In this document: positions 25,082 to 46,338 of the stretch, one piece after another | Numbering within the stretch: the stretch's first letter is position 1 | Layout of the letters: every line of letters starts with the position of its first letter | Assembly: GCA_009694195.1 (NCBI GenBank) | Contig: SHVQ01000009.1 | Coordinates: 10,294-74,293 of the forward strand | Source: Rhodospirillales bacterium | GTDB lineage: Bacteria > Pseudomonadota > Alphaproteobacteria > Rhodospirillales > SHVQ01 | DNA length: 64,000 nucleotides | Reading direction: 5' to 3' | The notes under the pieces: generated by a model | What the model was told of the DNA's origin: nothing | What the model saw: only the letters and a program-made list of their open reading frames with translations | The model's database searches: none | Program-made: the position numbers and the translations under genes

Positions 25082-25108
25082 CCCGGATCGCGCCTGGGAT
25101 CAGCCGGG

Positions 25109-25465: not shown

Positions 25466-25570
25466 GGGGACCCCCTTTTGAGCGCGACCGAATCATCCTC
25501 CGTTGGCGGGTGCTTTTCAATACGTCGATTTACCTGCGCAATTGACGTTTCTCCGACTTGCTCGTAAGGG

Positions 25571-31937: not shown

Positions 31938-31946
31938 TTGTCGGCC

Positions 31947-32189
31947 ATGAAAACCGTCTCTGCACGCGCGGCTAATCAGTCGTTCTCGAAGCTTCTCGCC
32001 CGCGCGGCGGCCGGCGAGGAGGTCGTCATCACGCGCCGCGGCAAGCCGGTGGCGAAGATCGGTCCGATCGCCAAACGCACCGCCGACAAGGCTCGCGAAG
32101 CTGCAATCAAACGGATGATTACCCGGATGCGGAAAGGTATGCATCTCGGCGGTGTTCGCTACACCCGTGACCAGATGCACGAACGTTGA
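31947..32189 (+). CDS. type II antitoxin, Phd/YefM family
   Basis: MKTVSARAANQSFSKLLARAAAGEEVVITRRGKPVAKIGPI is a typical Phd N-terminus. Its stop overlaps the toxin start. Confidence 0.8.
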   Translation: MKTVSARAANQSFSKLLARAAAGEEVVITRRGKPVAKIGPIAKRTADKAREAAIKRMITRMRKGMHLGGVRYTRDQMHER

Positions 32190-32713: not shown

Positions 32714-33694
32714 ATGCCCCGAACGTCCCGCCGAGCCGCCAAGACGCCGTCCAAAGACGACATCGCGCGGCTCTATCGCGGGCTTTTCCTCATTCGCCGG
32801 GCGGAAGAGGAGGTCGAGCACGTCTACCCCTCGGACAAGATCAAGAGCCCGGTTCATCTCGCCATCGGCCAGGAAGCGGTGTCGGTCGCCATCTGCGACG
32901 CCTTGCGCCCCGATGACGTGCTCGGATGCACCTACCGCTCCCATGCCGCGTATCTCGCCAAAGGCGGCGATCTCGGAGCGATGATGGCCGAGATGTACGG
33001 AAAGGCGACGGGGTGTGCCCGCGGCAAGGGCGGTTCCATGCACCTGGTCGACATGCAGCACCTGCTGCTCGGAGCGTCGGCGGTGGTCGGCACCGGGATT
33101 CCCATCGCGGCCGGCTACGCCATCGCGCTCAAACGCGAAAAGAAGCGCCGTGTCGCGGTCACGCTCTTCGGCGACGGGGCGACAGAAGAAGGCTGCTTCT
33201 ACGAGACGCTCAACTTCGCAGGACTTCACAAGCTGCCGCTGCTCTTCGTCTGCGAAAACAATTTTTATTCCATTCACACCCACATCTCGAAGCGGTGGTC
33301 GAATCTGGACGTGTGCGGGCGGGCGCGCGCGTTCGGCGTGCCGGCGAAGCAGATCGTCGACGGTGATATCTTCAAAATTCGTGCGGCGGCCGCGGCCGCC
33401 GTCGATCGCATCCGCCGGGGCGGCGGGCCCGAGTTCCTCGAGATTCATACCTACCGCTGGCGCCAGCACGTGGGTCCCGGCGGCGACTACGACGCGGGCT
33501 ACCGGAGCGAGCGCGAGGCCAGGAAGTGGATGAAATCCGATCAGGTCGCTCGCCTCGCCGCCATGTTGGCATCCGCCACACGGGTGCGGATCGAAGACGA
33601 GGTAAACGCCAAAATCTCGGAGGCCATCGCCTTCGCCGAATCGAGCCCGTTCCCAGGGCCTGAGGATCTTCTCGCCGATGTCTTCGCCGACTGA
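32714..33694 (+). CDS. ThDP-dependent dehydrogenase E1 component, alpha subunit (pyruvate/acetoin dehydrogenase E1-like)
   Basis: 326 aa. YRSHAAYLAKGG, GKGGSMHL and the ThDP motif FGDGATEEGCFYETLNFA...LFVCENNFYS are present. Confidence 0.85.
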   Translation: MPRTSRRAAKTPSKDDIARLYRGLFLIRRAEEEVEHVYPSDKIKSPVHLAIGQEAVSVAICDALRPDDVLGCTYRSHAAYLAKGGDLGAMMAEMYGKATGCARGKGGSMHLVDMQHLLLGASAVVGTGIPIAAGYAIALKREKKRRVAVTLFGDGATEEGCFYETLNFAGLHKLPLLFVCENNFYSIHTHISKRWSNLDVCGRARAFGVPAKQIVDGDIFKIRAAAAAAVDRIRRGGGPEFLEIHTYRWRQHVGPGGDYDAGYRSEREARKWMKSDQVARLAAMLASATRVRIEDEVNAKISEAIAFAESSPFPGPEDLLADVFAD

Positions 33695-34751
33695 CCGCAA
33701 GGGCCGGCTGCTCACGTACGTGGGGGCACTGCAAGAGGCCGTCTCTCAGGAGATGGACCGCGACCCATCCGTGTTCGTGATGGGTCTCGATGTCGTCGAT
33801 CACAAAGGCATCCAAGGCTCGACGCAAGGGCTTCCCGAACGCTTCGGTCCAGACCGCGTGTTTCACACGCCGCTCTCCGAGGACGCGATGGCAGGCGTTG
33901 CCATCGGCGCCGCGATGGCGGGGATGCGCCCGATCTACGTTCACATCCGCATGGACTTCCTCATGCTCTGCATGAACCAGCTCATCAATATCGCGGCCAA
34001 GGCCCGCTACATGTACGGCGGCCAGGTCAGCGTTCCGATGGTCGTGCGCAGCATGATCGGCAAGTCGTGGGGCCAGGGCGCGCAGCATAGCCAGGGCCTG
34101 CATGCCATGTTCATGCATGTCCCCGGTCTGAAGGTCGTGGCGCCGGCGACCGCCTATGACGCCAAAGGGTGCCTCATCGCGGCAATTCGCGACAACAATC
34201 CGGTGATTTTCGTCGAACACCGGCTACTTTACTTCACCGACGCCTACGTACCTGAGGAATCCTATACCGTGCCGTTCGGACACGCCCGCGTGTGCACGCC
34301 CGGAGACGACATCACGATCGTCGGGATATCGAACATGCTGGTCGAGGCCTTGCGCGCGCGCGAGCTTTTGACAGAGGTCGGAATCCACGCCGAGGTCATC
34401 GATCCCATCTCGCTCGTGCCGCTCGACTCTGAAACAATTGTCCGCTCGGTCGCACGCACGAAGCGCCTTCTCGTCGTCGACAATGCGTGGACGACATGCG
34501 GGGCGAGCGCCGAGATCATGGCGCGTGTGATCGAGACGCTGGAACCGAGAGAGCTCCGCGCGATCCGGCGCCTCGGCTTCGCGCCCTCGACATGCCCGAC
34601 CACGCCCTCTCTCGAACGGCTCTTCTATCCGAATCCCGCCTCTATTGCCTCGGCCGCGCACGCCATGGTACGCCCCGAGGCCGATCGCTGGGAACCGAGC
34701 GCGGAAACGGCCGCGCTCGCCTACCAGATGAACTTTCGGGGGCCATTCTGA
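33678..34751 (+). CDS. ThDP-dependent dehydrogenase E1 component, beta subunit (transketolase-like pyrimidine-binding and C-terminal domains)
   Basis: 357 aa. LTYVGALQEAVSQEMDRDPSVFVMGLDV...RVFHTPLSEDAMAGVAIGAAMAGMRPI. It overlaps the alpha stop by 17 nt. Confidence 0.85.
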   Translation: MSSPTDRKGRLLTYVGALQEAVSQEMDRDPSVFVMGLDVVDHKGIQGSTQGLPERFGPDRVFHTPLSEDAMAGVAIGAAMAGMRPIYVHIRMDFLMLCMNQLINIAAKARYMYGGQVSVPMVVRSMIGKSWGQGAQHSQGLHAMFMHVPGLKVVAPATAYDAKGCLIAAIRDNNPVIFVEHRLLYFTDAYVPEESYTVPFGHARVCTPGDDITIVGISNMLVEALRARELLTEVGIHAEVIDPISLVPLDSETIVRSVARTKRLLVVDNAWTTCGASAEIMARVIETLEPRELRAIRRLGFAPSTCPTTPSLERLFYPNPASIASAAHAMVRPEADRWEPSAETAALAYQMNFRGPF

Positions 34752-35938
34752 GCAAGCCGCAGTCGCCCGCGCACTATTCGCTTGCCGCATCCTCCTGGGG
34801 CCCGGAGGAGACCGAAGCCGCTCGTCGCGTTCTCGATAGCGGCTTCGTCACCATGGGCGACAACGTGGCCCGCTTTCAAAAAGAATTCGCCGCCTACTTC
34901 GGGATGAAACACGCGGTGATGACGAATTCCGGCTCATCGGCCAATCTGATCGCGGTCGCCAGTCTCTTCTTCAAGAAGGATCGCCCGCTTCAGCGCGGCG
35001 ACGAGGTGATCGTCCCGGCCATCTCCTGGAGCACGACCTACCATCCGCTCCAGCAGTACGGCCTGAAGCTCCGCTTCGTCGACGTGAACCTGGAGACCCT
35101 CAACATCGACGAGACGAAGCTCGAAGAAGCATTGACGCCGCGGACGCGAATGATCATTGCGGTCAGCATCCTCGGCAATCCCGCGCCGCTCGACGTCATC
35201 CGAGACTTTGCCGACCGCCACGACCTCTATTTCATGGAGGACAACTGCGAATCCATGGACGCCGAGATCGAGGGACGGAAGACCGGCACATTTGGTGACC
35301 TCAACACGTTCAGCTTCTTCTTCTCCCATCACATCTCGACGATGGAAGGCGGCATGGTGCTGACGGACGACACGGAGCTCGCGCACCTCTGCCTCGCCTT
35401 GCGCGCGCACGGCTGGACGCGGGACCTGCCGGTCGGAAGCCCGCTTTTCGAGCGCCGCTCCAACGATCACTTCGAGGCCTACCGGTTCATTCTGCCCGGC
35501 TATAACGTCCGGCCGCTGGAAATTTCGGGAGCGATCGGGCGCGAGCAGTTGAAAAAACTGCCGGCGATGACCGAGGCCCGCCGCAGGAACTGGGCCGTGT
35601 TTCACGGGCTCTTCGCGGGCGACGAGCGTTTCATTATCCAACGCGAAAACGGAAAGACATCCTGTTTTTGCTTCACGATCGTGCTCAATCCGAAGCGCAA
35701 CCCAAACCGCGAGCGCATCTTCGAGGCGCTCCGCGACGCCGACATCGGCTTCCGCATCATTACCGGCGGTTGCTTTCTTGCCCACGACGCGATCAAGTAT
35801 TTCGACTACACGACGGTCGGCACGATGGAGAACGCGTTTACGGCGCATGAGCTCGGTTTCTTTGTCGGCAACCACCCCTACGACCTGACGCCGCAGATCG
35901 GGCGCCTGCGCGATGTCCTCGACCGCGCCTGCCGGTAG
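34747..35938 (+). CDS. colD: PLP/PMP-dependent NDP-4-keto-6-deoxyhexose 3-dehydratase, ColD-like (DegT/DnrJ/EryC1 family with His replacing the catalytic Lys)
   Basis: YSLAASSWGPEE..., NSGSSANL, EDNCESM, FSFFFSHHISTMEGG (HH at 35327-35332) and LRAHGWTR are present. No canonical start lies before the conserved N-terminus; the only candidates are ATT at 34747 or CTG at 34750, overlapping the E1-beta TGA. Confidence 0.75.
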
Positions 35939-35945
35939 ACCGTCG

Positions 35946-36890
35946 ATGGCCAAGCCGCTCAACATTCTCGTCACCGGCGGCGGCGGCTATCTGGGATCGG
36001 TCCTGGTCCCGGAGTTGCTCGCGGCCGGGCACCGGGTCACGGTGCTCGACACCTTCATGTACCGGCAGAACTCGCTCGCGAGCGTATGCTCCGATCCCAA
36101 CTTCGACGTCGTACGCGGCGACGCCCGCAATCCCGACACTTTGACGCCCTTGATAAAGCGGGCCGACCTTGCGATTCCTCTGGCGGCCATCGTCGGCGCA
36201 CCCGCCTGCGACCGCGATCGGGTTGCGGCCGAAAGCGTCAACCGAGATGCCGTCGTCACGCTGCTGGGCCTTCTCGGCCGCAACCAGCGGGTCATGATGC
36301 CGATCACCAACAGCGGCTATGGTGTCGGCGAGAAGGGCAAGTTCTGTACAGAGGACACGCCGCTCCGGCCGGTCTCGCTGTACGGCCGGACGAAGGTCGA
36401 GGCCGAAAGAGCGGCGCTCGAGCGCGGCAATTGCATCAGCTTCCGTCTCGCGACCGTGTTCGGCATGGCACCGCGCATGCGGATCGATCTCTTGGTCAAT
36501 GATTTCGTCCACCGCGCCGTCTACGACCGCGCGGTCGTCGTGTTCGAGGGCCACTTCAAGCGCAACTACATCCACATCCGCGACGTGGCGCGCGCGTTCC
36601 TGCATGGCATCGAGCGCTTCGATGCGATGAAGGACCGGCCTTACAACGTCGGCCTCTCGGACGCCAATCTCTCGAAGATCGAGCTTTGCGAGCGGATCAA
36701 AAAACATCTGCCGAAATTCGTTTACCTGGAGGCGCCGGTCGGGGAGGACCCGGACAGGCGCGACTACATCGTCTCCAACGCCAGAATCGAGGCAACGGGC
36801 TTCCGTCCGCGCCATACCCTCGACGAAGGCATCGGCGAGCTCATCAAAGGATACAAGATGATCCGCGATGCGAGGTTCGGGAACGTGTAG
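35946..36890 (+). CDS. NAD-dependent epimerase/dehydratase (extended SDR)
   Basis: LNILVTGGGGYLGSVLVPELLAAGHRVTVLD is the Rossmann motif and SLYGRTKVEAE is the YxxxK motif. The ATG at 35946 lies 8 nt after the ColD-like stop. Confidence 0.85.
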   Translation: MAKPLNILVTGGGGYLGSVLVPELLAAGHRVTVLDTFMYRQNSLASVCSDPNFDVVRGDARNPDTLTPLIKRADLAIPLAAIVGAPACDRDRVAAESVNRDAVVTLLGLLGRNQRVMMPITNSGYGVGEKGKFCTEDTPLRPVSLYGRTKVEAERAALERGNCISFRLATVFGMAPRMRIDLLVNDFVHRAVYDRAVVVFEGHFKRNYIHIRDVARAFLHGIERFDAMKDRPYNVGLSDANLSKIELCERIKKHLPKFVYLEAPVGEDPDRRDYIVSNARIEATGFRPRHTLDEGIGELIKGYKMIRDARFGNV

Positions 36891-36940: not shown

Positions 36941-37150
36941 TCAGTGTGACCGGGTGTGCCTGCGATCCCGGTCGAGGATCTGGTCCGCGACCTTTTTCTG
37001 CTCGTCGCTGAACGCCGCGTAGAGCGGCTTTGCGGCGGCCACGACTTCGGTCGCGCGCGTCGAGGCCTCGGCGAGGAATTGCTGGCGTCGCTCCAGGCGC
37101 TCGATCGCCGTTCCCTTCTGGTCGCGCCTCTCCGATTTTCCCTTCTGCAT
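36941..37150 (-). pseudogene. Spy/CpxP (LTXXQ-type) family C-terminal fragment, probable gene remnant
   Basis: ...ERLERRQQFLAEASTRATEVVAAAKPLYAAFSDEQKKVADQILD resembles the C-terminal helix of periplasmic CpxP/Spy-like proteins. No signal peptide or N-terminal half; the rest of the track ORF is antisense to the pentapeptide gene. Confidence 0.3.
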
Positions 37151-37186
37151 GGATTCGTCGAACGCGCGGGCCTGACGAAGAAGGAC

Positions 37187-37633
37187 ATGCGTCGGCTCAA
37201 CCTGCGCGGCGTTAATTTCAGCGGCATGGGGATGCGCGGCGTGAACCTCAAAGAGGCCACTTTGAGCGATGGCTTGTTCATCTTCACCACCCTTTCGTAC
37301 GCGGATCTCAGCGGCGCCAAAGCCGAGGGCGCCGATTTCGACGCCGCGGCCCTCACCCACTCGAATTTCACCGGCGCCTTCCTCAAAAAGGCGAACTTTC
37401 GTCCCGTGGAAGTCTTCGGCGCCGACGGCAAGTCGACCGGACAGTCGTGGTACGCGAACCTGTCGAACACGAACTTCACCGGCGCCGACCTCACGGAGGC
37501 GCATTTCCGCGAAGCCAATCTCGAGGGCGCCAATTTCGACAAAGCCACCGTCAAGGGCACGCATTTCGAGAAATGCAAGATCGATTCGAAGACGGAGCCG
37601 GAGCTTCGTAAGCTGGGCGCGCTCGTGAGTTGA
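37187..37633 (+). CDS. pentapeptide-repeat protein
   Basis: MRRLNLRGVNFSGMGMRGVNLKEATLSDG...ADLSGAKAEGADFDAAALTHSNFTGAFLKKANF...NFTGADLTEAHFREANLEGANFDKATVKGTHFEKCKI shows the A(D/N)LxX periodicity. The start is uncertain. Confidence 0.7.
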   Translation: MRRLNLRGVNFSGMGMRGVNLKEATLSDGLFIFTTLSYADLSGAKAEGADFDAAALTHSNFTGAFLKKANFRPVEVFGADGKSTGQSWYANLSNTNFTGADLTEAHFREANLEGANFDKATVKGTHFEKCKIDSKTEPELRKLGALVS

Positions 37634-37766: not shown

Positions 37767-39248
37767 ATGGATCTCGTGCTCGTCAATCCCGGTGGCCGGG
37801 AGGCCATCTACCAGGAGCTCGGCACCGACCTCACGGCGGTCGAGCCGCCGCTTTGGTGCCGGCTTCTCGCCGGCTATGCGCGGGACCGCGGCCACTCCGT
37901 CGCCATCCTCGATTCGGAGGCCGAATCGTGGGGTCCGGAGACGGTGGCGAAGCGGGTCGCGGAGCTCGACCCCAGGCTCGTCTGCATGGTGGTGTTCGGC
38001 CATCAGCCGTCCGCCTCCACGCAGCAGATGGTCGGCGCGAGCGCGGCCTGCGCCGCGATCAAGCGGGCGGCGCCGGCCGTTCCCCTCCTCATCGTCGGCG
38101 GCCACGTCTCGGCTTTGCCCGCGCGCACCTTGCGGGAGGAAAGCGTCGATTACGCCTGCAAGGGCGAGGGACCGGTCACCGTCGACCGCCTGCTCGCGGC
38201 CTTGAAGGCCGACCGCGCATCCGACCTGAGTACCATTCCCGGCCTTGTGTGGCGCGATGGAGACGCCGTTCGCGTCAACCCGTCGGCACCGTTGATCCAG
38301 GACCTCGACGCGGACCTCCACGGCAACGCATGGGACCTGCTGCCGATGGAGAAGTACCGGGCGCACAACTGGCAGTGCTTCGGGGATCTGAATAGCCGGA
38401 AGCCCTACGCGTCGATCTATACGTCCCTCGGCTGTCCCTATAAGTGCCACTTCTGCTGCATCAACGCGCCGTTCGAGGTGAACCGCTACCGGATGCGCAA
38501 CCCGGACAAGGTGGCCGCCGAAATCGACCGCCTCCACGCCGCTTACGGGGTGAAGACGATCAAGATCATCGATGAGATGTTCGTGCTGAACGAGCGGCAC
38601 GTGCTCGCGATCTGCGATCGCCTGATCGAGCGCGACTACGACCTGAACATCTGGGCCTATGCGCGGGTCGACACGGTGAAGCAGCACATGCTGGACCGGC
38701 TCCGGCGCGCGGGCGTGCGCTGGCTCGCGCTCGGCATCGAGTCGGGCTCGAAGCACGTCCGTGACGGGGCGCTGAAATCGCTGAAGCAGGACGACATCGT
38801 CGGCATCGTCAGGGCGATCCAAGCCGCCGATATCAACGTCATCGGGAATTTCATCTTCGGCCTGCCCGACGACAACATCGACACCATGCGTGAAACGCTC
38901 GGCCTCGCACAGGGGCTCAACTGCGAGTTCGCCAACTTCTATTCGGCCATGGCCTATCCGGGCTCTCCCCTCTACGCGACGGCACTCGCGAAGGGATGGC
39001 CGCTTCCCGAGCGCTGGTCCGGCTATTCACAGCACAGCTACGATTGCCTCCCGCTGCCGACCGAGTCGCTCTCGGCCGCCGCCGTCCTCAAGTTCCGCGA
39101 CGAGGCTTTCCACGAATACTTCGCGAGCCCGCGCTATCTTGAAATGGTGCAGCGCCGGTTCGGCCGCGAGACCCGTGCCCACATCGAGGACATGGCCGGC
39201 CACCGCCTCAGGCGAAAAATCCTCGAGGGGCGGGAAGCCGCCGAATGA
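37767..39248 (+). CDS. B12-binding-domain radical SAM enzyme (class B, probable C-methyltransferase)
   Basis: 493 aa. The N-terminal Rossmann-like LVLVNP...VAILDSEAE...LVCMVVFG...LLIVGGHVSALP is cobalamin-domain-like. The CPYKCHFC (Cx3Cx2C) motif lies at 38433-38456. Confidence 0.8.
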   Translation: MDLVLVNPGGREAIYQELGTDLTAVEPPLWCRLLAGYARDRGHSVAILDSEAESWGPETVAKRVAELDPRLVCMVVFGHQPSASTQQMVGASAACAAIKRAAPAVPLLIVGGHVSALPARTLREESVDYACKGEGPVTVDRLLAALKADRASDLSTIPGLVWRDGDAVRVNPSAPLIQDLDADLHGNAWDLLPMEKYRAHNWQCFGDLNSRKPYASIYTSLGCPYKCHFCCINAPFEVNRYRMRNPDKVAAEIDRLHAAYGVKTIKIIDEMFVLNERHVLAICDRLIERDYDLNIWAYARVDTVKQHMLDRLRRAGVRWLALGIESGSKHVRDGALKSLKQDDIVGIVRAIQAADINVIGNFIFGLPDDNIDTMRETLGLAQGLNCEFANFYSAMAYPGSPLYATALAKGWPLPERWSGYSQHSYDCLPLPTESLSAAAVLKFRDEAFHEYFASPRYLEMVQRRFGRETRAHIEDMAGHRLRRKILEGREAAE

Positions 39249-40006
39249 CCGAAGCTCGGGATTTGTCGGGCGTCGCGGTCGCCGTTCTCGCGGGCGGGCT
39301 CGGCACCCGAATTCGGGCCACGCTCGGCGACACGCCGAAGGTGCTGGCGCCGGTCAACGGCCGCGCCTATCTCGATCATCTCCTCGACCGCCTAGCCGTC
39401 CACCGGCCTGCCCGGATCGTCCTCTGCCTCGGCGACCGCTCCGAGCGCGTGCTTGCCCATCTGGAACGCCACCCTCGGCGCGGTCCGGCGATCGAATCCC
39501 TCGTCGAGAGCGCTCCGCTGGGAACGGCCGGGGCCCTTCGCCACGCATTGCCGCGGTTGACCACGGAGCCGGTGCTCGTCATGAACGGCGACAGCTGGAT
39601 CGACGCCGACCTCGGCGCCTTTGTCGCCGCCCATCGAAAGCATGGTGCGCCTGCTTCGATCTTCTGCGCCCGCGTGGACGATGCCTCCCGCTTCGGGCGC
39701 GTCGAGGTGGACCTGCAAGGCTACGTCGTCCGCTTCGTTGAAAAAGATCGGGCGGGCCGGGGCGCGGCGCTGATCAACGCCGGGGTCTACGCCTTCTCGC
39801 AAGCGGTCCTCGGCCGCGTCAAGACCGGCACCGGGGCATCCCTCGAATACGACGTGCTGGCCAAGCTCGCGCCGGGGACGCTCTATGCGCACACCGTTAG
39901 GGGCGCCGCCTTCGTCGACATCGGCACGCCCGAGGGTCTTGCGCGCGCGGCCGAGGTGCTGCCGAAAGCCCTTCCCGAAAACATTCGTCGAACGGGGGCG
40001 GCGTGA
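39245..40006 (+). CDS. sugar-1-phosphate nucleotidyltransferase (HddC/ManC-like)
   Basis: VAVLAGGLGTRIRATLGDTPKVLAPVNG is the G-x-G-T-R motif, and ESAPLGTAGAL is present. An ATGA overlap links it to the upstream radical SAM gene. Confidence 0.85.
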   Translation: MTEARDLSGVAVAVLAGGLGTRIRATLGDTPKVLAPVNGRAYLDHLLDRLAVHRPARIVLCLGDRSERVLAHLERHPRRGPAIESLVESAPLGTAGALRHALPRLTTEPVLVMNGDSWIDADLGAFVAAHRKHGAPASIFCARVDDASRFGRVEVDLQGYVVRFVEKDRAGRGAALINAGVYAFSQAVLGRVKTGTGASLEYDVLAKLAPGTLYAHTVRGAAFVDIGTPEGLARAAEVLPKALPENIRRTGAA

Positions 40007-41007
40007 TCATCAGCCGCACGCCTTTCCGCGTGTCCCTTTTCGGCGGCGGCTCCGATTATCCGCTCTGGTACCGCGCGCACGGCGGCGCCGTGATCGGCTT
40101 CGCCATCAACAAGTACTGCTACATCAGCATGCGGCCGCTGCCCCCGTTCTTCGACCACAAGTACCGCATCGTTTATTCCCGCATCGAGAACGTGAATGCG
40201 ATCGAAGAAATCCAGCACCCGGCCGTGCGCCACGTGCTCGGCAATACCGGGATGGATTTCGGTGTCGAGATCCACCACGACGGCGATCTGCCGGCCCGCT
40301 CGGGGCTCGGGTCGAGCTCGTCGTTCACGGTTGGGCTCCTGAACGCCGTCCACGCCCAGTATGGACGGATGTCGACCAAGGCGCAGCTTGCCGAGGAGGC
40401 GATCCGCATCGAGCAAGACGTGATCCGCGAGAACGTCGGCTCCCAGGATCAGGTATGGGCGGCCTACGGCGGGCTCAACCGGGTGGATTTCCGGCGCGAC
40501 GGCAGTTTCGGGGTCGACCCGATCATCATGAACGGAGAGCGGCAGGACCGCCTGATCAAGTCCTTCATGCTGGTGTTCACCGGTCTTTCCCGCCAGGCGA
40601 GCGAGATCGCCGGGAAAAAGATCGCCAACCTAAAAAACCGCGAAGGCCACATCCGCTCGATGATGGGGATGGTGGACGAGGCGGCGGCGATTCTCGGCTC
40701 GTCAAGTCGGCCGCTGGAAGAACTGGGCGTCCTGCTGCACGAATCCTGGCGCTTGAAACGGGAGCTCACGGACGGCATCACCAATGCGACGATCGATTCC
40801 ATTTACGAGGCAGCGCGCGCGGCGGGCGCCGTCGGCGGCAAGCTCATGGGCGCCGGCGGCGGGGGATTCATGCTGTTCTTCGCCGCGCCGGAGCGCCAGC
40901 AGGCGATCCGCGACGCCCTCGCCAAGCTCGTGCACGTCGCTGTTGACGTCGACCGCGCGGGCAGCCGCATCGTGGTCTATGAACCGGACGGCCTTCACAA
41001 GCGCTGA
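40003..41007 (+). CDS. GHMP-family sugar kinase (HddA-like)
   Basis: IISRTPFRVSLFGGGSDYP is an HddA-type N-terminus. PARSGLGSSSSFTVG is GHMP motif II. GKLMGAGGGGF is motif III. Confidence 0.85.
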   Translation: MIISRTPFRVSLFGGGSDYPLWYRAHGGAVIGFAINKYCYISMRPLPPFFDHKYRIVYSRIENVNAIEEIQHPAVRHVLGNTGMDFGVEIHHDGDLPARSGLGSSSSFTVGLLNAVHAQYGRMSTKAQLAEEAIRIEQDVIRENVGSQDQVWAAYGGLNRVDFRRDGSFGVDPIIMNGERQDRLIKSFMLVFTGLSRQASEIAGKKIANLKNREGHIRSMMGMVDEAAAILGSSSRPLEELGVLLHESWRLKRELTDGITNATIDSIYEAARAAGAVGGKLMGAGGGGFMLFFAAPERQQAIRDALAKLVHVAVDVDRAGSRIVVYEPDGLHKR

Positions 41008-41019
41008 GGATCGGCTGGA

Positions 41020-41619
41020 ATGGTGAAGCCCGCGGGAGAGAAAGGGGCGCCGCCTGTCTCCGTGCGCGGGCGCCGCCTGCTCGGCGAGAACCGCGTGTGG
41101 AACGTGTACCTCGACCATATCGTCGGCGAGTCCGGTGCCGCCATCGAGGACTATCTGGTCGTCGAGCCGAAGGGCCTTGGCGCCACCGGCATCGGCGGCG
41201 TCGCCATCCTTCCGATCTGGGAGGGCGACATCGTGCTGCTGAAGGCCTACCGCCACCCCGTCCGCCTCTACACGTGGGAGCTCGCGCGCGGATTCCTCGA
41301 CCCCGGGGAAGAGCCCGCGGCCGCCGCGCTTCGCGAGATGGAGGAAGAAACCGGCCTCACGTGCGCTCCGGCCGACATCCGGCCGCTCGGCTACGTGCTT
41401 CCCGAATCGAGCACGATCGCCGGCAAGGAGGCCGTCTTCGTCGCCTTGAAGTGCAGGCCGGGCGGCGCCGTCGACACCAGCGAGCCCGGGCTCGGGAATC
41501 GCCACCGGTTTTCACCGCAAGACGTGAAGCGCATGCTGGCGCGCTACGAGATCGAGGACGCAACCGCGGTCGTGACTCTCTATCGATATTTCGCGCTCGG
41601 CGACGAGCCCGCGCGCTAG
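41020..41619 (+). CDS. NUDIX hydrolase (nucleotide-sugar/ADP-ribose pyrophosphatase-like)
   Basis: The Nudix box GFLDPGEEPAAAALREMEEETGL is present. Confidence 0.85.
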   Translation: MVKPAGEKGAPPVSVRGRRLLGENRVWNVYLDHIVGESGAAIEDYLVVEPKGLGATGIGGVAILPIWEGDIVLLKAYRHPVRLYTWELARGFLDPGEEPAAAALREMEEETGLTCAPADIRPLGYVLPESSTIAGKEAVFVALKCRPGGAVDTSEPGLGNRHRFSPQDVKRMLARYEIEDATAVVTLYRYFALGDEPAR

Positions 41620-41620
41620 C

Positions 41621-42496: not shown

Positions 42497-42544
42497 CGGG
42501 GGGACCCTAGTTGGCTTAACCACCGGCATCAAGGTAAGAGCGTG

Positions 42545-42705
42545 AGAATATTTCGTCACTCCCGCGAACACGGGAGTCCAGGGAAACTGGAAACAGATCG
42601 AAAAATCTGGGTTCCCGCTCCTCATCCTGAGCCGCGCGCCTCTCCTTCGAGACGCAGCCAGTGGCTGCTCCTCAGGATGAGGCGCGCGAGTCGAAGGACG
42701 CGGGA
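42545..42705. repeat. REP-like palindromic elements in the divergent intergenic region
   Basis: ACTCCCG-cgaaca-CGGGAGT hairpin, then the long inverted repeat CCTCATCCTGAG ... CTCAGGATGAGG. Translation gives the HPEE/LRMR-type junk peptides typical of such repeats. Confidence 0.6.
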
Positions 42706-42783
42706 ACGACGCGGTGGCGGTCCCTCCGCTTGACACCCCCTGCCCCCGGCCATATACGCCGGACCACGAAAGAGGGGGCCTGA

Positions 42784-43776
42784 ATGGGCCAGTTTCTCGC
42801 CGACATCCGCGAGCATCGCAGCTTCGTGCTCGGTTTCGCGCCTATCGCCGCGCTTGCGCTGGCCATGGGCGTGGGAGCGCCGCTCGCCATTCAGTCCCTC
42901 GGAGATCGGATTCCGGTCGTGGGGGCGCTGCTGCACGCGATCGGGATCGCGTTCGATCCGAAAATCCTCTACCTGCCGCTCGGCATGGTGTTCGTCACCC
43001 TCGTGAGCCTCGGGATCGAAGCCGCCGGCCTCGGCTATCGCGATTCCACCGTGCGCCGCATCCTGACGAACCGGTCGCCGTCCGTGCGCACGGACCTGTT
43101 CTATTTTCTGCTGCGCGTTTCCGGCCTCACGGCCCTCATCGCCTTTCTGGTCTCGTTCGGGACGTTCGGGCTGCTCGTCGGCTGGATCGAGCAGCGGGTG
43201 GATCTCCGGGTGCTGCAACACGTCGAGAACCCGGCTGTCCAGTTCGCGGCCGTGGCGCTCGCGCAGTCGCTCGCCTTCTACCTCTTCCATCGCCTCATGC
43301 ACACGAAGCTCTTGTGGGAGGTTCACAAGGTCCATCACTCGGCCGAGGACTACAATCCGCTGCTTCCCTACCGGAACCACCCCATCGATTTCCTCGGCGC
43401 CACCCTGCTCGGCGCGCTTTTCGCGGCCGTGCTGGGTGCCGGCGCCGAAGTCGTGACCGCCTGGAGCGTGGCTAACGGCTTCTACCAGTCGCTCGTCCAT
43501 TCCCGGCTTCAATGGAAATGGAAATGGCTGGAGTCCGTCGTCATCACGCCCGCCGCCCATCGCGTCCACCATTCGACGGCGCCCGAGCACTTCAACCGCA
43601 ACTACGGCATCCTCACATTTTGGGATTGGCTGTTCGGAACCTACTACGCGCCGCGCGGGGAGCCGGCCGAGATCGGCGTCGCCGACCGCGCCAATTTCAA
43701 CACCGACCGGTATTTCGCCGAGATGGGCCTCGTCGTCCTCCGGTGGCTCGGGCGCGCGCGGGCGGGGCGCGGATGA
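42784..43776 (+). CDS. fatty acid hydroxylase / sterol desaturase superfamily membrane di-iron enzyme
   Basis: 330 aa and polytopic. It carries the His boxes HRLMH, HKVHHS and HRVHHS. Confidence 0.8.
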   Translation: MGQFLADIREHRSFVLGFAPIAALALAMGVGAPLAIQSLGDRIPVVGALLHAIGIAFDPKILYLPLGMVFVTLVSLGIEAAGLGYRDSTVRRILTNRSPSVRTDLFYFLLRVSGLTALIAFLVSFGTFGLLVGWIEQRVDLRVLQHVENPAVQFAAVALAQSLAFYLFHRLMHTKLLWEVHKVHHSAEDYNPLLPYRNHPIDFLGATLLGALFAAVLGAGAEVVTAWSVANGFYQSLVHSRLQWKWKWLESVVITPAAHRVHHSTAPEHFNRNYGILTFWDWLFGTYYAPRGEPAEIGVADRANFNTDRYFAEMGLVVLRWLGRARAGRG

Positions 43777-45248
43777 CCGCGCCGGCACGCTCTCGCGCCC
43801 GGCCGTTTCCCTTCTATGTGCTGGCGGCGCTCGTCTATGCGAGCCTGCTCGCCGTCGCCGTGCTTTATCTCGCTTACCCCGCGTTCATCGATCACGGCGA
43901 GCCCAGCACGCTCTTGATCGCCTGGCGTCTTCTCCAAGGCTTGCCTGCCTACCCGCCGTTTTCGGCGCCCGAGCGGATCACCAACATTTACGGGCCCCTC
44001 GCCTACGGCGTGAATACGGTCGTGCTCGCCGCGTTCGGCCCTTCGATCCCGGCCGGCAAGGCGGCCGCGGTCGCGGCCGCCATCGCCATGCCGGCGATGA
44101 TCTTCTGGAGCCGCATCCGCGACGGCTGGACGGTCGCCGCGGCCGGAGTTCTGCTGGCGGCAGGCTACGCGCTCCTTCACTTGCCCGCCACGGTGTGGAA
44201 CCGCCCGGATTCCTTCGTGGCGCTCTGCGTCGCCGTTGCGCTCGCGGTCTTGCGGATGCAAAGCCTGGATGGCCGCGAGACCCTGCGCGCCCTCCTGATC
44301 GCGCTCTGCGCGGCGCTTGCGGCGGGCGCCAAGCTGCACGCGGCGCTCTACTTCGCGCCCATCGTCCTCTTTTACGTCTGGGAGCGCGGGCTCGGAACGC
44401 TCATCCTCATGGGCGCCGCCGGAGCGCTTCTGGTGCTGGCGCCGTTCGCGCTGCCGCCCTTCTCGCTCGTCGACTATCTCTCCTGGTTCGAGCCGGTGGC
44501 GGCCGGCAAGCAGAACTCGTGGGGCGTCTTTCTCAAGGTTTTCCGCTACTCGCTGTTCTATTTCGCGCCGCTCGTGTTTCCGCTGCTCGATCGGAAGACG
44601 CTGCGCGCCCGCGACTGGGCGTACGTCGGCGCCTACGCGGGATGCCTCGTCTTGTCGTTCTTCCCCGCCTCGAAGCCGGGCGCCGGGATGCATTACCTCT
44701 TGCCGTTCGCCCCCATTGCCGTCGATATCGCGCTCCGCTACGGCGCCGCGGGGTTCACCAAGCGGATGGCGACAGCCGCGGCCGCCATCCTCGCCCTCGC
44801 CCTTCTCGCGGTCAGCATGCCCATCCAGGAACGCTTCGTTCGCGCGCTGCACTGGGACGAGGCCCGCGCCGTCGGCGGCGAGATTCGGCAGATCATGGCC
44901 GACTTCAGCGGCCGGACCATCGAAATGGGCGTCGGCGACACCGTCGTCTCCTACCCCCGCACGTTCCAGAAGACGATCCTGGTCACGGCGGGGCACCCCT
45001 ACTCACTCGACGCGGCGATCGTGACGGAGACGGCCTATCTCAAGATCCCGCTGCCGCCGGAGACGGTTGCCCGCATTCGCGCCTGCCGCACGGACGTTTG
45101 GCTCATCCCCGCGGGCGAGCGCCCGTTCGCCATGGTCGGCTATTACGCGATGCCGGCGTTCGGCCAGGAGTTCCAGGACGCGTTCCTCGCCGCCTACGAG
45201 AAGCGCCGGAGCTATCGGTACTTCGACGCTTGGGCCTGCCGGCGTTAG
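43773..45248 (+). CDS. polytopic membrane protein, probable GT-C-fold glycosyltransferase (ArnT/PMT_2-like architecture)
   Basis: 491 aa with about 10 TM segments, then a ~150-aa soluble C-terminal domain. An ATGA overlap links it to the hydroxylase gene. Called on architecture and context only. Confidence 0.5.
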   Translation: MTAPARSRARPFPFYVLAALVYASLLAVAVLYLAYPAFIDHGEPSTLLIAWRLLQGLPAYPPFSAPERITNIYGPLAYGVNTVVLAAFGPSIPAGKAAAVAAAIAMPAMIFWSRIRDGWTVAAAGVLLAAGYALLHLPATVWNRPDSFVALCVAVALAVLRMQSLDGRETLRALLIALCAALAAGAKLHAALYFAPIVLFYVWERGLGTLILMGAAGALLVLAPFALPPFSLVDYLSWFEPVAAGKQNSWGVFLKVFRYSLFYFAPLVFPLLDRKTLRARDWAYVGAYAGCLVLSFFPASKPGAGMHYLLPFAPIAVDIALRYGAAGFTKRMATAAAAILALALLAVSMPIQERFVRALHWDEARAVGGEIRQIMADFSGRTIEMGVGDTVVSYPRTFQKTILVTAGHPYSLDAAIVTETAYLKIPLPPETVARIRACRTDVWLIPAGERPFAMVGYYAMPAFGQEFQDAFLAAYEKRRSYRYFDAWACRR

Positions 45249-46201
45249 CCGGACATCGGACCGCCCGGCTCGAAGCCGATCTTGTCCTGGATGATGAAGC
45301 GGGGGCGCCCGCGCACTTCCTTGTAAATCCGCAGCACGTAGAGCCCGAGCGTGCCGATCGCGGCGACGATCGTCGCCCAAAAAAATGTGAGGAGCCCGAT
45401 AAACGCGAGCGTGCGGCCGCCCGCGTGGCCGGCGAGGCTCATCAGAAGGCCCGCGAGGACGGCCACGACCGCGGCGATGATCCCGATCAGCCCCGTGCCG
45501 GCAATCACATAGATCGGGACGAACGAAAAGGACGTGATCGCGGTGATGAAGGCCTTCGCCGGATTACGGCTGAACAGCGGGAATTTGCTGGTTCCACGCG
45601 CGCGCCCGACCCGCTCGTAGGGCACGGTCTCCTGACGGAACCCGATCCAGGCCGCAAGCCCGCGAATGTAGGGATCGTATTCCTTCAGGCACAGAAACTG
45701 ATCGAGCGCGCGGCGGGAGAGTAGCTTGAAATCTCCCGCCTCGACCGGAAGCTTGAGGGTCGAAAAAAAACGGATGATCTGATACGCCCGCTTGGTCACC
45801 CATTTCTTGAGCCAGGTCTCTCCCTTGCGATCGAGCCGCACGGTGTGGATGACGTCCGCGCCCGCCCGCCAGCGCTGTAACAGCTCCGGCAGAAGCTCGG
45901 GCGGGTCCTGCAGATCGCTGTCCATGTAGATGAGCGCGTCGCCCGAAGCCACGCTCATGCCGGCCAGCACGCCCTCCGACGGCCCGAAGCGGCGCGACAG
46001 CGTGATGACCTTGATCCGGGGGTTCCTTTCCCGCTCGCCGAGGAGAACCTCGAGCGAACGGTCGGTCGAGGCGTCGTTGACGAAGATGAGCTCGTAGTCC
46101 TCGGGTCCCGGCTCGAGCGCCTTCGCCACTCGCGCGATCAATTCCGGCAGGTTCTGTTCCTCGTTCCGAAACGAGAACACGACGGAAACAAGCTGCGTCA
46201 T
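45245..46201 (-). CDS. family 2 glycosyltransferase, polyprenyl-phosphate sugar transferase type (ArnC/GtrB/DPM1-like)
   Basis: From the ATG at 46201: VSVVFSFRNEEQNL..YELIFVNDASTDRS, YMDSDLQDPPE (the DxD region) and two C-terminal TM helices. Confidence 0.85.
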   Translation of the reverse strand: MTQLVSVVFSFRNEEQNLPELIARVAKALEPGPEDYELIFVNDASTDRSLEVLLGERERNPRIKVITLSRRFGPSEGVLAGMSVASGDALIYMDSDLQDPPELLPELLQRWRAGADVIHTVRLDRKGETWLKKWVTKRAYQIIRFFSTLKLPVEAGDFKLLSRRALDQFLCLKEYDPYIRGLAAWIGFRQETVPYERVGRARGTSKFPLFSRNPAKAFITAITSFSFVPIYVIAGTGLIGIIAAVVAVLAGLLMSLAGHAGGRTLAFIGLLTFFWATIVAAIGTLGLYVLRIYKEVRGRPRFIIQDKIGFEPGGPMSG

Positions 46202-46338
46202 TCTGCGCCCTCCCGCTGCCGTGTACGCTATCTCGGGAACCGAAAGCAAGCCGCCGCAGGGCACGGGCGCCCTGAATTGCATCCCGCTCGATCTCCCTTT
46301 ACGATGCAGCCGATTCCAGAGGATGTGAGCGGGATTCA

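What the first reader, a model, noticed from the sequence alone, without database searches (positions are those of the whole stretch)
37767..39248. First cobalamin-type radical SAM enzyme, translationally coupled to the sugar activation genes
It has an N-terminal B12-binding-like Rossmann region plus CPYKCHFC (38433-38456). Its stop overlaps (ATGA) the start of the nucleotidyltransferase, which in turn overlaps the GHMP kinase. Class B radical SAM enzymes methylate unactivated carbons; sugar C-methylation by GenK/GenD1 in gentamicin biosynthesis is a precedent. Tight coupling with nucleotide-sugar formation suggests that its substrate is a sugar or sugar nucleotide. I am not aware of a described example in Gram-negative envelope glycan biosynthesis.
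Basis: partly seen in the sequence, partly recalled or inferred. Interest (0 to 1): 0.6.

Follow-up and report, generated by a model that had tools for sequence, protein, structure and literature searches.

The report
B12-type radical enzyme, heptose sugar cassette
The gene is a real vitamin-B12-type radical SAM enzyme from an unstudied, highly conserved family that travels with a gene set for rebuilding an activated seven-carbon sugar, so it probably carries out a still-unknown radical step on a cell-surface sugar.

Summary
Observation confirmed. ORF 37767-39248 (+) encodes a 493-aa protein with a B12-binding domain, a radical SAM domain and CPYKCHFC at 38433-38456. It overlaps the nucleotidyltransferase gene by ATGA, and that gene overlaps the GHMP kinase gene by GTGA.

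It reaches no curated family cut-off (BchE, HpnJ, AprD4, HpnR, PhpK, TsrM and others). It belongs to a large uncharacterised family: 573 genome loci at 64-76% identity across several phyla, plus 86 viral contigs.

Its neighbourhood is conserved. It holds an HddA-like kinase, an HddC-like nucleotidyltransferase, a close homologue of PDB 6vo6 (Cj1427, a GDP-heptose C4-dehydrogenase, by my recollection), a true ColD-type 3-dehydratase and a ThDP E1 alpha/beta pair. In an even sample of 300 alphaproteobacterial genomes, the radical SAM gene and the cassette-type E1 beta co-occur in 13 of 14 (p 4e-19). Two fusions to the nucleotidyltransferase exist.

The chemistry is not settled: C-methylation about 0.4, carbocycle formation about 0.2, radical dehydration about 0.2. 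Cobalamin dependence cannot be tested here. I found no paper describing this family. It is a new variant of a known kind, of moderate to high interest.

The parts
37767..39248 (+). Class B (B12-binding domain + radical SAM) enzyme, 493 aa: the finding itself
   Evidence: ORF and translation. Pfam PF02310 + PF04055. No NCBIfam cut-off reached. AF2 model and Foldseek hits to TsrM, AprD4, MgmA, CysS, OxsB and TokK.
37836..38192 (+). N-terminal Rossmann-type B12-binding-like domain (aa 24-142)
   Evidence: PF02310, 63.1 bits. Family-invariant residues E26, P28, D49, G78, P81, A83, S84, M88, G111, E134, G135. This domain aligns with the N-terminal domains of the BchE, ApyD, BzaD, HpnR and TsrM models but not with that of AprD4.
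38433..38456 (+). CPYKCHFC: the CxxxCxxC motif for the radical SAM [4Fe-4S] cluster
   Evidence: Read directly from the sequence. C223, C227 and C230 are 100% conserved in 153 homologues.
39245..40006 (+). HddC-like sugar-1-phosphate nucleotidyl(guanylyl)transferase, ATGA-coupled to the radical SAM gene
   Evidence: PF00483. Best PDB matches 6jq8/5xhw, '6-deoxy-D-mannoheptose pathway protein', E 7.5e-30. Present next to the radical SAM gene in 27/48 loci. Fused to it in P0013 and P0115.
40003..41007 (+). HddA/WcbL-like GHMP kinase (heptose 7-phosphate C1-kinase type), GTGA-coupled
   Evidence: PF00288 + PF08544. Best PDB matches 4usk/4usm, 3k85 and 4n3o (heptose kinases), E 1e-28 to 1e-32. The most frequent neighbour: 40/48 loci.
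41020..41619 (+). NUDIX hydrolase (optional cassette member)
   Evidence: PF00293. Present in 14/48 loci, always just after the kinase.
35913..36890 (+). [quoted passage not shown]
   Evidence: phmmer E 3.6e-109, 368 bits over aa 17-324. Lacks the dehydratase Asp/Glu motif (sequence). Present in 38/48 genome loci and 37/54 viral loci, mostly directly upstream of the radical SAM gene.
34745..35938 (+). ColD-type PLP/PMP sugar 3-dehydratase (His in place of the Schiff-base Lys)
   Evidence: 394 bits, E 6e-117 to ColD/WbdK structures 2gms and 3gr9. HH in FSFFFSHHISTMEGG. Present in 39/48 loci. The start codon is uncertain.
32714..34751 (+). ThDP-dependent E1 alpha (32714-33694) and E1 beta (33678-34751) pair without E2/E3: the presumed C-branching enzyme
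   Evidence: Pfam E1_dh and Transket_pyr/Transketolase_C. Below the PDH equivalog cut-offs. Present in 33-34/48 loci. Genome-wide co-occurrence with the radical SAM gene: 13 of 14, p 4e-19.
43776..46282 (.). GT-C-like multi-pass membrane protein (about 43776-45248, +) and ArnC/PgfS-like GT2 (45245-46282, -): the likely lipid-carrier loading and periplasmic transfer module
   Evidence: GT2: PF00535; PgfS 201 bits, ArnC 137 bits. Homologues sit beside the cassette in 14 (GT2) and 10 (GT-C-like) of 48 loci. The GT-C-like protein has no Pfam hit; its role is inferred.

Best explanation
The gene encodes a class B radical SAM enzyme: an N-terminal cobalamin-type Rossmann domain followed by a [4Fe-4S]/SAM barrel. 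It is a fixed component of a horizontally mobile cassette for tailoring GDP-heptose.

**Inferred pathway**
1. [quoted passage not shown] GmhA and GmhB would be supplied from elsewhere in the genome.
2. The 6vo6-like (Cj1427-type) SDR oxidises C4.
3. The ColD-type enzyme removes the 3-OH.
4. The ThDP E1 alpha/beta pair adds a two-carbon unit from pyruvate to the C4 ketone.
5. The radical SAM enzyme acts on this GDP-linked intermediate. The reduced cluster cleaves SAM, and the 5'-deoxyadenosyl radical abstracts a hydrogen from an unactivated sugar or side-chain carbon.
6. As the single most likely outcome, the substrate radical takes a methyl group from methylcobalamin, as in GenK, GenD1 and Fom3.
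7. The finished sugar is loaded on undecaprenyl phosphate by the GT2 and transferred outside the membrane by the GT-C-like protein.

**Shown here:** domain architecture, family membership tests, gene coupling, conserved synteny, fusions and co-occurrence.

**Inferred:** every chemical step, the order of the steps, cobalamin use and the acceptor.

My confidence that the substrate is a GDP-heptose-derived sugar nucleotide is about 0.8. My confidence in the whole statement, including methyl transfer, is 0.4.
For: - **Architecture and fold:**
- **Cobalamin-type domain:** N-terminal domain motifs are invariant across 153 homologues at 40-100% identity. The domain aligns to bona fide B12 families but not to AprD4's degenerate domain.
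- **Gene coupling:** translational coupling to the nucleotidyltransferase and kinase.
- **Synteny in 48 genome loci:** kinase 40, ColD 39, SDR 38, E1 beta 34, nucleotidyltransferase 27.
- **Synteny in 54 viral loci:** SDR 37, ThDP enzyme 37, ColD-like 31, kinase only 9. This points to the tailoring steps rather than sugar activation.
- **Fusions:** two radical SAM-nucleotidyltransferase fusions.
- **Co-occurrence:** with cassette-type E1 beta in 13 of 14 positive genomes out of 300 sampled, p 4e-19.
- **Neighbour identities:**
- **Biochemical precedent:** Cj1427 plus the HS:5 C3-dehydratase make GDP-3-deoxy-4-keto-heptose without a 4,6-dehydratase (PMC10680097). Consistently, 5 of 15 cassette genomes have no Gmd.
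- **Nucleotide-tagged substrate precedent:** Fom3 is a class B enzyme acting on a nucleotide-tagged substrate (PMC8158854).
- **Cobalamin supply:** CobS is present in the genome.
- **From my own knowledge:** most characterised class B enzymes, and all those known to act on carbohydrates (GenK, GenD1, MoeK5), are C-methyltransferases.
Against: - No test here addresses methyl transfer or cobalamin binding.
- The best profile scores are to BchE (149 bits) and HpnJ (146 bits), which are not methylases. All scores are far below cut-offs.
- The best structural TM-scores and the best PDB sequence E-value are to AprD4, a B12-independent sugar diol-dehydratase.
- No natural C-methylated 3-deoxy-4-C-branched heptose is known to me.
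- The order of steps is unknown.
- GmhB was not found in this 73%-complete genome.
- Some loci (about 8 of 48) show none of the cassette genes within 10 kb. In at least one such case, Azospirillum lipoferum 4B, the missing genes lie 20 kb away on the same plasmid.
Confidence: 0.4

Rival explanations
1. Same substrate class, different chemistry: the enzyme forms a C-C bond within the sugar (a carbocyclase). The 5'-deoxyadenosyl radical abstracts H from C7 of the 4-C-acetyl-3-deoxy-heptose. The C7 radical adds to the branch carbonyl (C8) and closes a cyclopentane fused to the pyranose. The product would be a caryose-like 4,8-cyclo-3,9-dideoxy-nonose.
For: - The best profile similarity is to BchE and HpnJ, both linked to five-membered carbocycle formation. 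The hpnJ knock-out stops at BHT-glucosamine (PMC9092360).
- Radical SAM sugar carbocyclisation has further genetic precedent in calditol synthase.
- Caryose has exactly the features the cassette enzymes would give: heptose backbone, 3-deoxy, quaternary C4, terminal methyl from a C2 unit. Its biosynthesis is stated to be unknown.
- The conserved core has no dedicated ketoreductase for the acetyl branch. An Fcl-like SDR occurs in only 16 of 80 loci. A cyclisation that consumes the carbonyl would explain this.
- The enzyme is tightly coupled to the ThDP enzyme.
Against: - All profile scores are far below family cut-offs, so the ranking is weak evidence.
- HpnJ has never been reconstituted.
- Caryose is known only from Burkholderia (Trinickia) caryophylli, whose genome I could not reach.
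- The cassette occurs in about 5% of alphaproteobacterial genera, yet no such sugar has been reported from them.
Confidence: 0.22
2. The enzyme is an AprD4-like radical dehydratase or another redox-neutral radical enzyme (deoxygenation of the C6/C7 diol of the heptose side chain, or an epimerisation). It would need no cobalamin, and a neighbouring SDR would reduce the resulting carbonyl.
For: - AprD4 is the best PDB match by sequence (E 3.7e-18) and by TM-score (0.69-0.71 query-normalised, 0.75-0.76 target-normalised), and it acts on a sugar.
- An SDR lies directly upstream in most loci, resembling the AprD4/AprD3 pair.
- The cassette lacks a 4,6-dehydratase. Related natural branched sugars (yersiniose, erwiniose, caryophyllose) are 3,6-dideoxy.
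Against: - The match to AprD4 covers only the radical SAM barrel (aa 155-423).
- The N-terminal domain scores well above the Pfam B12-binding cut-off and is strictly conserved, which argues for a bound cofactor.
- The upstream SDR is a close homologue of PDB 6vo6, which I recall as the C4-dehydrogenase Cj1427, not of a reductase.
Confidence: 0.18
3. The enzyme acts before nucleotide activation, on a free sugar or sugar phosphate. It would create the unusual substrate that the GHMP kinase then phosphorylates.
For: The kinase is the most frequent neighbour (40/48). Some loci hold only the radical SAM gene plus the kinase and a GT2. The kinase scores far below the HddA equivalog cut-off (120 vs 600 bits), so its substrate may differ.
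Against: Viral loci keep the radical SAM gene with the SDR and ThDP enzyme but mostly drop the kinase (9/54) and nucleotidyltransferase (1/54). Fusion is to the nucleotidyltransferase, not the kinase. There is strong co-occurrence with E1 beta, which acts on NDP-4-keto sugars in known pathways.
Confidence: 0.08
4. The substrate is not a carbohydrate (a lipid, tetrapyrrole or peptide), and the sugar genes are neighbours by coincidence.
For: Most class B families with the best profile scores act on non-sugars. The window also holds a fatty-acid hydroxylase and a methyltransferase.
Against: Those window-specific genes are absent from other loci (1/48 each). Synteny, fusions and co-occurrence all involve sugar-nucleotide enzymes across phyla and phages. 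No family cut-off is reached.
Confidence: 0.04

Closest known systems
Campylobacter jejuni capsular GDP-heptose tailoring (HddA, HddC, Cj1427 C4-dehydrogenase, HS:5 C3-dehydratase)
   Same: The kinase and nucleotidyltransferase are of the same type. The SDR matches PDB 6vo6 at 368 bits. A ColD-type 3-dehydratase is present. The demonstrated route to GDP-3-deoxy-4-keto-heptose needs no 4,6-dehydratase (PMC10680097).
   Different: The C. jejuni pathways finish with cupin epimerases and C4-reductases. They have no ThDP enzyme and no radical SAM enzyme. Here the 4-keto intermediate is apparently diverted to C-branching and radical chemistry.
GenK / GenD1 (gentamicin) and MoeK5: class B radical SAM C-methyltransferases acting on sugars
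   Same: The same two-domain architecture, and a carbohydrate substrate (inferred here). The mechanism I rank first is their mechanism.
   Different: Their substrates are aminoglycoside or phosphoglycolipid intermediates, not NDP-sugars, and they belong to actinomycete antibiotic clusters. Sequence relation was not tested here: no models or sequences were available. Methyl transfer is unproven for this family.
Fom3 with Fom1 and FomD (fosfomycin)
   Same: A class B radical SAM enzyme whose substrate carries a nucleotide put on by a partner nucleotidyltransferase and later removed by a hydrolase (PMC8158854). The gene order here, nucleotidyltransferase - radical SAM - (NUDIX), and the fusions echo this logic.
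   Different: The Fom3 substrate is a phosphonate, not a sugar. The nucleotide is CMP. There is no sequence membership.
HpnJ (hopanoid cyclitol ether), calditol synthase Cds and BchE: radical SAM carbocycle formers
   Same: HpnJ and BchE are the best-scoring curated families (146 and 149 bits). HpnJ and Cds are genetically linked to converting a sugar into a five-membered carbocycle.
   Different: Scores are 3-4 fold below the equivalog cut-offs. No hopanoid or bacteriochlorophyll genes are adjacent. The substrates of those enzymes are lipid- or tetrapyrrole-bound.
AprD4 / AprD3 (apramycin C3' deoxygenation)
   Same: The closest solved structure. It has a sugar substrate and a partner SDR encoded alongside.
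   Different: AprD4 does not bind cobalamin (PMC12931638). Only the barrel aligns. The AprD4 equivalog score is 86 vs a cut-off of 500.
Sugar-branching ThDP E1 alpha/beta pairs (Pau11/Pau12, AviB1/AviB2) and YerE (yersiniose)
   Same: An orphan E1 alpha/beta next to a 3-dehydratase. The expected product is a 4-C-acetyl or 1-hydroxyethyl branch on a 3-deoxy-4-keto NDP-sugar (PMC4753412 abstract).
   Different: Those pathways use 6-deoxyhexoses or pentoses and a ketoreductase, and contain no radical SAM partner.

Membership tests
Class B (cobalamin-binding) radical SAM enzymes | Radical SAM barrel with a CxxxCxxC cluster motif | tested here: met
   PF04055 at 61.2 bits. C223/C227/C230 invariant. 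Fold matches.
Class B (cobalamin-binding) radical SAM enzymes | N-terminal Rossmann-type B12-binding domain | tested here: met
   PF02310 at 63.1 bits vs cut-off 32.1. The Foldseek match to TsrM is long (441-553 alignment columns), and the TsrM sequence match spans aa 33-401.
Class B (cobalamin-binding) radical SAM enzymes | Actual binding of, and dependence on, cobalamin | not testable with these tools
   Indirect only: the domain is conserved and CobS is in the genome. AprD4 shows that the fold alone is not proof.
GenK/GenD1-type sugar C-methyltransferases | Sequence membership or orthology | not tested
   No model or sequence of GenK or GenD1 was available in the libraries searched.
GenK/GenD1-type sugar C-methyltransferases | Methyl transfer from methylcobalamin to an sp3 sugar carbon | not testable with these tools
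   Needs an enzyme assay.
BchE (TIGR02026) | Equivalog score and bacteriochlorophyll gene context | tested here: not met
   149 bits vs cut-off 481. No bch genes in the window.
HpnJ (TIGR03471) | Equivalog score and hopanoid gene context | tested here: not met
   146 bits vs cut-off 578. The conserved neighbours are sugar-nucleotide genes.
AprD4 radical SAM diol-dehydratase (NF033070) | Equivalog score over the full length | tested here: not met
   86 bits vs cut-off 500. Only aa 145-411 align.
Conserved GDP-heptose tailoring cassette (uncharacterised; defined here by synteny) | Adjacent HddA-like kinase, 6vo6-like (Cj1427-type) SDR, ColD-type dehydratase and ThDP E1 pair | tested here: met
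   All are present in the window and recur in 33-40 of 48 loci.
Conserved GDP-heptose tailoring cassette (uncharacterised; defined here by synteny) | The substrate really is GDP-D-glycero-D-manno-heptose | tested here: inconclusive
   - The kinase and nucleotidyltransferase are only 100-115-bit relatives of the heptose enzymes.
- GmhA-like genes lie beside the cassette in 5 loci and GmhB-like genes in 5 loci.
- The own genome has a GmhA-like gene but no detected GmhB.

The most novel reading that the evidence does not exclude
The radical SAM enzyme is a sugar carbocyclase. It joins C7 of a GDP-linked 3-deoxy-4-C-acetyl-heptose to the branch carbonyl, making a caryose-type bicyclic nonose. The cassette would then be the long-unknown route to carbocycle-fused higher sugars of Gram-negative O-antigens (caryose, and perhaps relatives such as bradyrhizose). 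Such sugars would be far more widespread, including in phage-encoded pathways, than structural chemistry has so far shown.
Probability: 0.2. Interest if true: 0.85.

Novelty: new variant of a known kind. Interest (0 to 1): 0.6.

Why it matters
Class B radical SAM enzymes perform chemically hard reactions on unactivated carbons, and only a few dozen have known functions. None is described for primary envelope glycan or sugar-nucleotide metabolism.

This family is strongly conserved: 64-76% identity across phyla, which equals or exceeds the 73% best match found for the housekeeping RecG of this genome. It is present in about 5% of sampled alphaproteobacterial genera and is also carried on viral contigs.

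Its partners define a short, reconstitutable pathway starting from a known compound (GDP-heptose) and using enzymes with characterised homologues. Finding its reaction would add a new radical step to nucleotide-sugar biochemistry. It would identify an undescribed surface sugar. It could also explain the unknown origin of carbocyclic or higher branched sugars in lipopolysaccharides. Cultured carriers exist for genetics (Azospirillum lipoferum 4B, Azospirillum halopraeferens, Magnetospirillum moscoviense, Tistlia consotensis).

Tried and rejected
1. **The radical SAM enzyme supplies the 4-keto sugar that ColD needs.** I considered this because the cassette lacks a 4,6-dehydratase and 5 of 15 cassette genomes lack Gmd. 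I dropped it when the adjacent SDR proved to be a close homologue of PDB 6vo6, which I recall as Cj1427. Cj1427 plus a C3-dehydratase is documented to suffice.

2. **A BtrN-like dehydrogenase with an auxiliary Fe-S cluster.** Only the three motif cysteines are invariant. C131, C231 and C283 are 94-97% conserved, so there is no clear second cluster site.

3. **The bradyrhizose gene cluster.** The published candidate cluster is built around a dTDP-glucose 4,6-dehydratase, and no radical SAM gene is mentioned (PMC4743980). From memory, bradyrhizose is not 3-deoxy. I kept it only as a distant analogy.

4. **Azospirillum lipoferum 4B as an exception** (radical SAM gene without ColD or E1 nearby). 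This is resolved: SDR, E1 alpha/beta and the ColD-like gene lie 20 kb away on the same plasmid.

5. **Literature searches** for this enzyme combination found nothing relevant.

6. **Confirming from a paper that PDB 6vo6 is Cj1427** failed. That identification rests on my memory and the depositor's generic name.

7. **Reaching the Trinickia (Burkholderia) caryophylli genome** was not possible.

8. **Residue-level inspection of the cobalamin pocket** was not possible because model coordinates are not exposed.
Full report
**1. The observation**

The ORF at 37767-39248 (+) starts with ATG, ends with TGA and encodes 493 residues. Its third-position G+C is 0.87 against 0.45 at second positions, the pattern of real genes in this 64% G+C window.

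Pfam finds a B12-binding domain (aa 24-142, 63.1 bits, cut-off 32.1) and a Radical_SAM domain (aa 218-380, 61.2 bits, cut-off 29.5). CPYKCHFC is encoded exactly at 38433-38456.

The stop overlaps the ATG of the next gene (ATGA at 39245-39248). That gene's stop overlaps the GTG of the GHMP kinase gene (GTGA at 40003-40006). No terminator-like site lies on the + strand in between.

An AlphaFold2 model built on 20 homologues is confident (pLDDT 82, pTM 0.86). It matches the solved class B enzymes TsrM, MgmA, CysS, OxsB and TokK, and the B12-free AprD4, at Foldseek E 5e-21 to 1e-15.

**2. Which family**

Against NCBIfam, the protein reaches no curated cut-off:

| Family | Score (bits) | Cut-off (bits) |
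|---|---|---|
| BchE | 149 | 481 |
| HpnJ | 146 | 578 |
| ApyD | 134 | 750 |
| PhpK | 96 | 600 |
| AprD4 | 86 | 500 |
| HpnR | 83 | 650 |
| TsrM | 58 | 500 |
| KedN5 | 48 | 700 |

It does belong to a large, tight family of its own.
- The protein database returns thousands of relatives. The best 120 are all at least 70% identical over the full length and carry only generic or mistaken names.
- The species-level genome collection holds 573 loci. The best 80 are 64-76% identical. They come from Rhodospirillales (Magnetospirillum, Azospirillum, Tistlia, Desertibaculum), other Alphaproteobacteria, Acidobacteriota, Verrucomicrobiota, Chloroflexota and others.
- In an even sample of 300 alphaproteobacterial genomes, 14 carry it, each in a different family-level group. 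It is a patchy, accessory gene.
- IMG/VR holds 86 viral contigs with homologues of 40-65% identity.

Across 153 of these sequences, only the three motif cysteines are invariant among cysteines, so I see no second cluster site. Many residues of the N-terminal domain are invariant (E26, P28, D49, G78, P81, A83, S84, M88, G111, E134, G135). That domain aligns with the N-terminal domains of true B12 families. It does not align with that of AprD4, where only aa 145-411 match. This favours a functional cofactor domain but does not prove cobalamin binding.

**3. The surroundings in the window**

The host genome is a 2.5-Mb, 73%-complete assembly of an uncultured member of the Rhodospirillales. The genes around the finding are:

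| Coordinates | Strand | Product |
|---|---|---|
| 32714-33694 | + | E1 alpha |
| 33678-34751 | + | E1 beta |
| about 34745-35938 | + | DegT-family protein |
| 35913-36890 | + | Extended SDR |
| 36956-37633 | + | Pentapeptide-repeat protein |
| 37767-39248 | + | Radical SAM enzyme (the finding) |
| 39245-40006 | + | Nucleotidyltransferase |
| 40003-41007 | + | GHMP kinase |
| 41020-41619 | + | NUDIX hydrolase |
| 41621-42736 | - | Methyltransferase |
| 42784-43776 | + | Fatty-acid-hydroxylase-type protein |
| about 43776-45248 | + | Multi-pass membrane protein |
| 45245-46282 | - | GT2 |
| 46339-48396 | + | Second B12/radical SAM protein |

Comparison with solved structures sharpens these labels.
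- The DegT-family protein is a true ColD: 394 bits, E 6e-117 to GDP-4-keto-6-deoxymannose 3-dehydratase structures. It has His in place of the Schiff-base Lys.
- The kinase is closest to the heptose kinases WcbL and HddA.
- The nucleotidyltransferase is closest to the Yersinia '6-deoxy-D-mannoheptose pathway protein', HddC.
- The SDR matches PDB 6vo6 at 368 bits, E 3.6e-109. [quoted passage not shown] I could not confirm the entry's identity from a paper.

Earlier notes of this scan on related cassettes in other genomes named Cj1427 as the closest known enzyme. That prompted this test.

**4. Conservation of the context**

Of the genome loci, 48 have at least 5 kb on both sides. The window's genes recur in them as follows:

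| Gene | Loci (of 48) |
|---|---|
| GHMP kinase | 40 |
| ColD | 39 |
| SDR | 38 |
| E1 beta | 34 |
| E1 alpha | 33 |
| Nucleotidyltransferase | 27 |
| NUDIX | 14 |
| GT2 | 14 |
| GT-C-like | 10 |
| Methyltransferase | 1 |
| Hydroxylase | 1 |
| Second radical SAM | 1 |
| Pentapeptide protein | 0 |

The usual order is E1 alpha - E1 beta - ColD - SDR - radical SAM - (nucleotidyltransferase) - kinase - (NUDIX).

Clustering all neighbouring ORFs adds an Fcl-like SDR (16 loci), a GmhA-like SIS protein (5 loci) and a GmhB-like HAD phosphatase (5 loci). No 4,6-dehydratase appears.

Two protein clusters are in-frame fusions of the radical SAM enzyme to a nucleotidyltransferase 52% identical to the window's.

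In 54 viral loci with flanks, the picture shifts. The SDR occurs in 37, usually directly upstream. A ThDP E1-alpha-like enzyme occurs in 37, usually directly downstream. ColD-like genes occur in 31. The kinase occurs in only 9 and the nucleotidyltransferase in 1. The tailoring core is therefore SDR + radical SAM + ThDP enzyme, with or without ColD.

An unbiased test agrees. Among 300 evenly sampled alphaproteobacterial genomes, 14 have the radical SAM gene, 16 have a cassette-type E1 beta (at least 60% identity) and 13 have both. They are usually a few kb apart on one contig (Fisher p 4e-19).

The apparent exception, Azospirillum lipoferum 4B, has Fcl-like - radical SAM - kinase - NUDIX. It carries SDR, E1 alpha/beta and the ColD-like gene 20 kb away on the same plasmid.

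**5. What the pathway probably is**

Raushel and co-workers showed two steps. [quoted passage not shown] The HS:5 C3-dehydratase (PLP, glutamate) then gives GDP-D-glycero-4-keto-3-deoxy-heptose. No 4,6-dehydratase is needed (PMC10680097).

That fits the cassette's content. It also fits the finding that 5 of 15 cassette-bearing genomes, one of them a complete chromosome, have no Gmd-type dehydratase at all.

Orphan E1 alpha/beta pairs are linked to adding a two-carbon branch at C4 of 4-keto NDP-sugars in antibiotic pathways. C-4 hydroxyethyl-branched sugars also occur in Gram-negative polysaccharides (abstract of PMC4753412). The roles of Pau11/Pau12 and AviB1/AviB2 are from my own knowledge.

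The GT2 resembles ArnC and PgfS. With the GT-C-like membrane protein it forms the usual pair for loading a sugar on undecaprenyl phosphate and transferring it outside the membrane. That last point is inference.

The own genome has a GmhA-like gene (181 bits, below cut-off), no detected GmhB, a Gmd on another contig and CobS.

**6. What the radical SAM enzyme does**

The evidence fixes its place in the pathway, not its chemistry. I rank three readings.

(a) *C-methylation via methylcobalamin (about 0.4).* This is the commonest class B reaction and the only one so far shown on carbohydrates (GenK, GenD1, MoeK5; my own knowledge). Fom3 is a precedent for a class B enzyme that works on a nucleotide-tagged substrate made by a partner nucleotidyltransferase and later hydrolysed (PMC8158854).

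(b) *Carbocycle formation (about 0.2).*
- The best profile matches are to BchE and HpnJ.
- hpnJ and calditol synthase are genetically tied to turning a sugar into a cyclopentane ring (PMC9092360).
- Caryose (4,8-cyclo-3,9-dideoxy-nonose) has an origin stated there to be unknown. It has exactly the features expected from heptose + 3-deoxygenation + a C2 branch at C4 + C7-C8 closure.
- This would also explain why the core cassette has no ketoreductase for the branch.

(c) *An AprD4-like dehydration or other redox-neutral radical step (about 0.2).* AprD4 is the closest solved structure and acts on a sugar with a partner SDR. Only its barrel aligns, however, and AprD4 lacks cobalamin (PMC12931638).

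Action before nucleotide activation (about 0.08) and a non-sugar substrate (about 0.04) are disfavoured by the viral loci, the fusions and the co-occurrence data.

**7. Comparison with what is known, and novelty**

A 2026 review of B12-dependent radical SAM enzymes does not mention sugar, GDP, heptose or lipopolysaccharide at all. Full-text searches for this enzyme combination found nothing. The library is incomplete, so this is absence of evidence only.

The protein is a class B radical SAM enzyme by architecture. It is not a member of any characterised family. It works in a context, primary sugar-nucleotide tailoring for an envelope glycan, that is not described for this class. I rate it a new variant of a known kind.

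The same cassette has been noted by this scan in many other genomes. This window is therefore one more instance of a recurrent, still unexplained system, not a unique find.

**8. Verdict**

- Observation: confirmed.
- Interpretation: partly supported. The sugar-nucleotide substrate is supported and sharpened to a GDP-heptose-derived branched intermediate. Methylation and cobalamin dependence are untested.
- Interest: 0.6.

Noticed in passing
window 46339-48396 (+): A second B12-binding/radical SAM protein (685 aa). It is most like the KedN5 family of C-methyltransferases (261 bits, cut-off 700), has a long C-terminal extension and is divergent from the GT2 gene. It recurs beside the cassette in only 1 of 48 loci, so it is a local add-on.
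   Followed up: partly
window 36956-37633 (+): A pentapeptide-repeat protein gene sits between the SDR and the radical SAM gene, followed by a 133-bp gap. No other locus (0/48) has it at this place, so it looks like a recent insertion into the operon.
   Followed up: partly
window 31890-32647 (+): A Phd/YefM-type antitoxin (31890-32189) overlaps a PIN-domain toxin gene (32186-32647) immediately upstream of the cassette. This would fit a mobile-island border.
   Followed up: no
window 34745-34770: The ColD-type gene has no ATG, GTG or TTG near the point where homology to ColD begins. In-frame candidates next to the E1 beta stop are ATT 34745 and CTG 34748. The only canonical in-frame start (GTG 34487) would overlap E1 beta by 265 bp.
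   Followed up: partly
window 27250-28083 (+): A family-3 solute-binding protein is split into two adjacent ORFs (27250-27660 and 27667-28083). Each matches one half of the Pfam model. This is a probable interrupted gene or sequencing error.
   Followed up: no
loci L084-L163 (IMG/VR viral contigs): 86 viral contigs, many 50-150 kb, carry homologues of the radical SAM enzyme (40-65% identity). They usually sit between a homologue of the window's 6vo6-like SDR and a single E1-alpha-like ThDP enzyme, but mostly without the kinase or nucleotidyltransferase. I did not examine what phages use this sugar chemistry for.
   Followed up: partly
L164 (Azospirillum lipoferum 4B plasmid p6, record 40744-43009): Genes for S-methyl-5'-thioadenosine phosphorylase and MtnA lie directly beside the ColD-like/E1 block. 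This may be a salvage route for 5'-deoxyadenosine produced by the radical SAM enzyme.
   Followed up: no
proteins P0013 (727 aa) and P0115 (748 aa): Natural fusions of this radical SAM enzyme (N-terminal) with the HddC-like nucleotidyltransferase (C-terminal, 52% identical to the window's).
   Followed up: yes
window about 10000-27000: This stretch has a lower G+C content (59-61%) and weaker third-position bias than the rest of the window (64-70%). It includes ntrY-like and dus genes and a GTA-like tail protein fragment.
   Followed up: no
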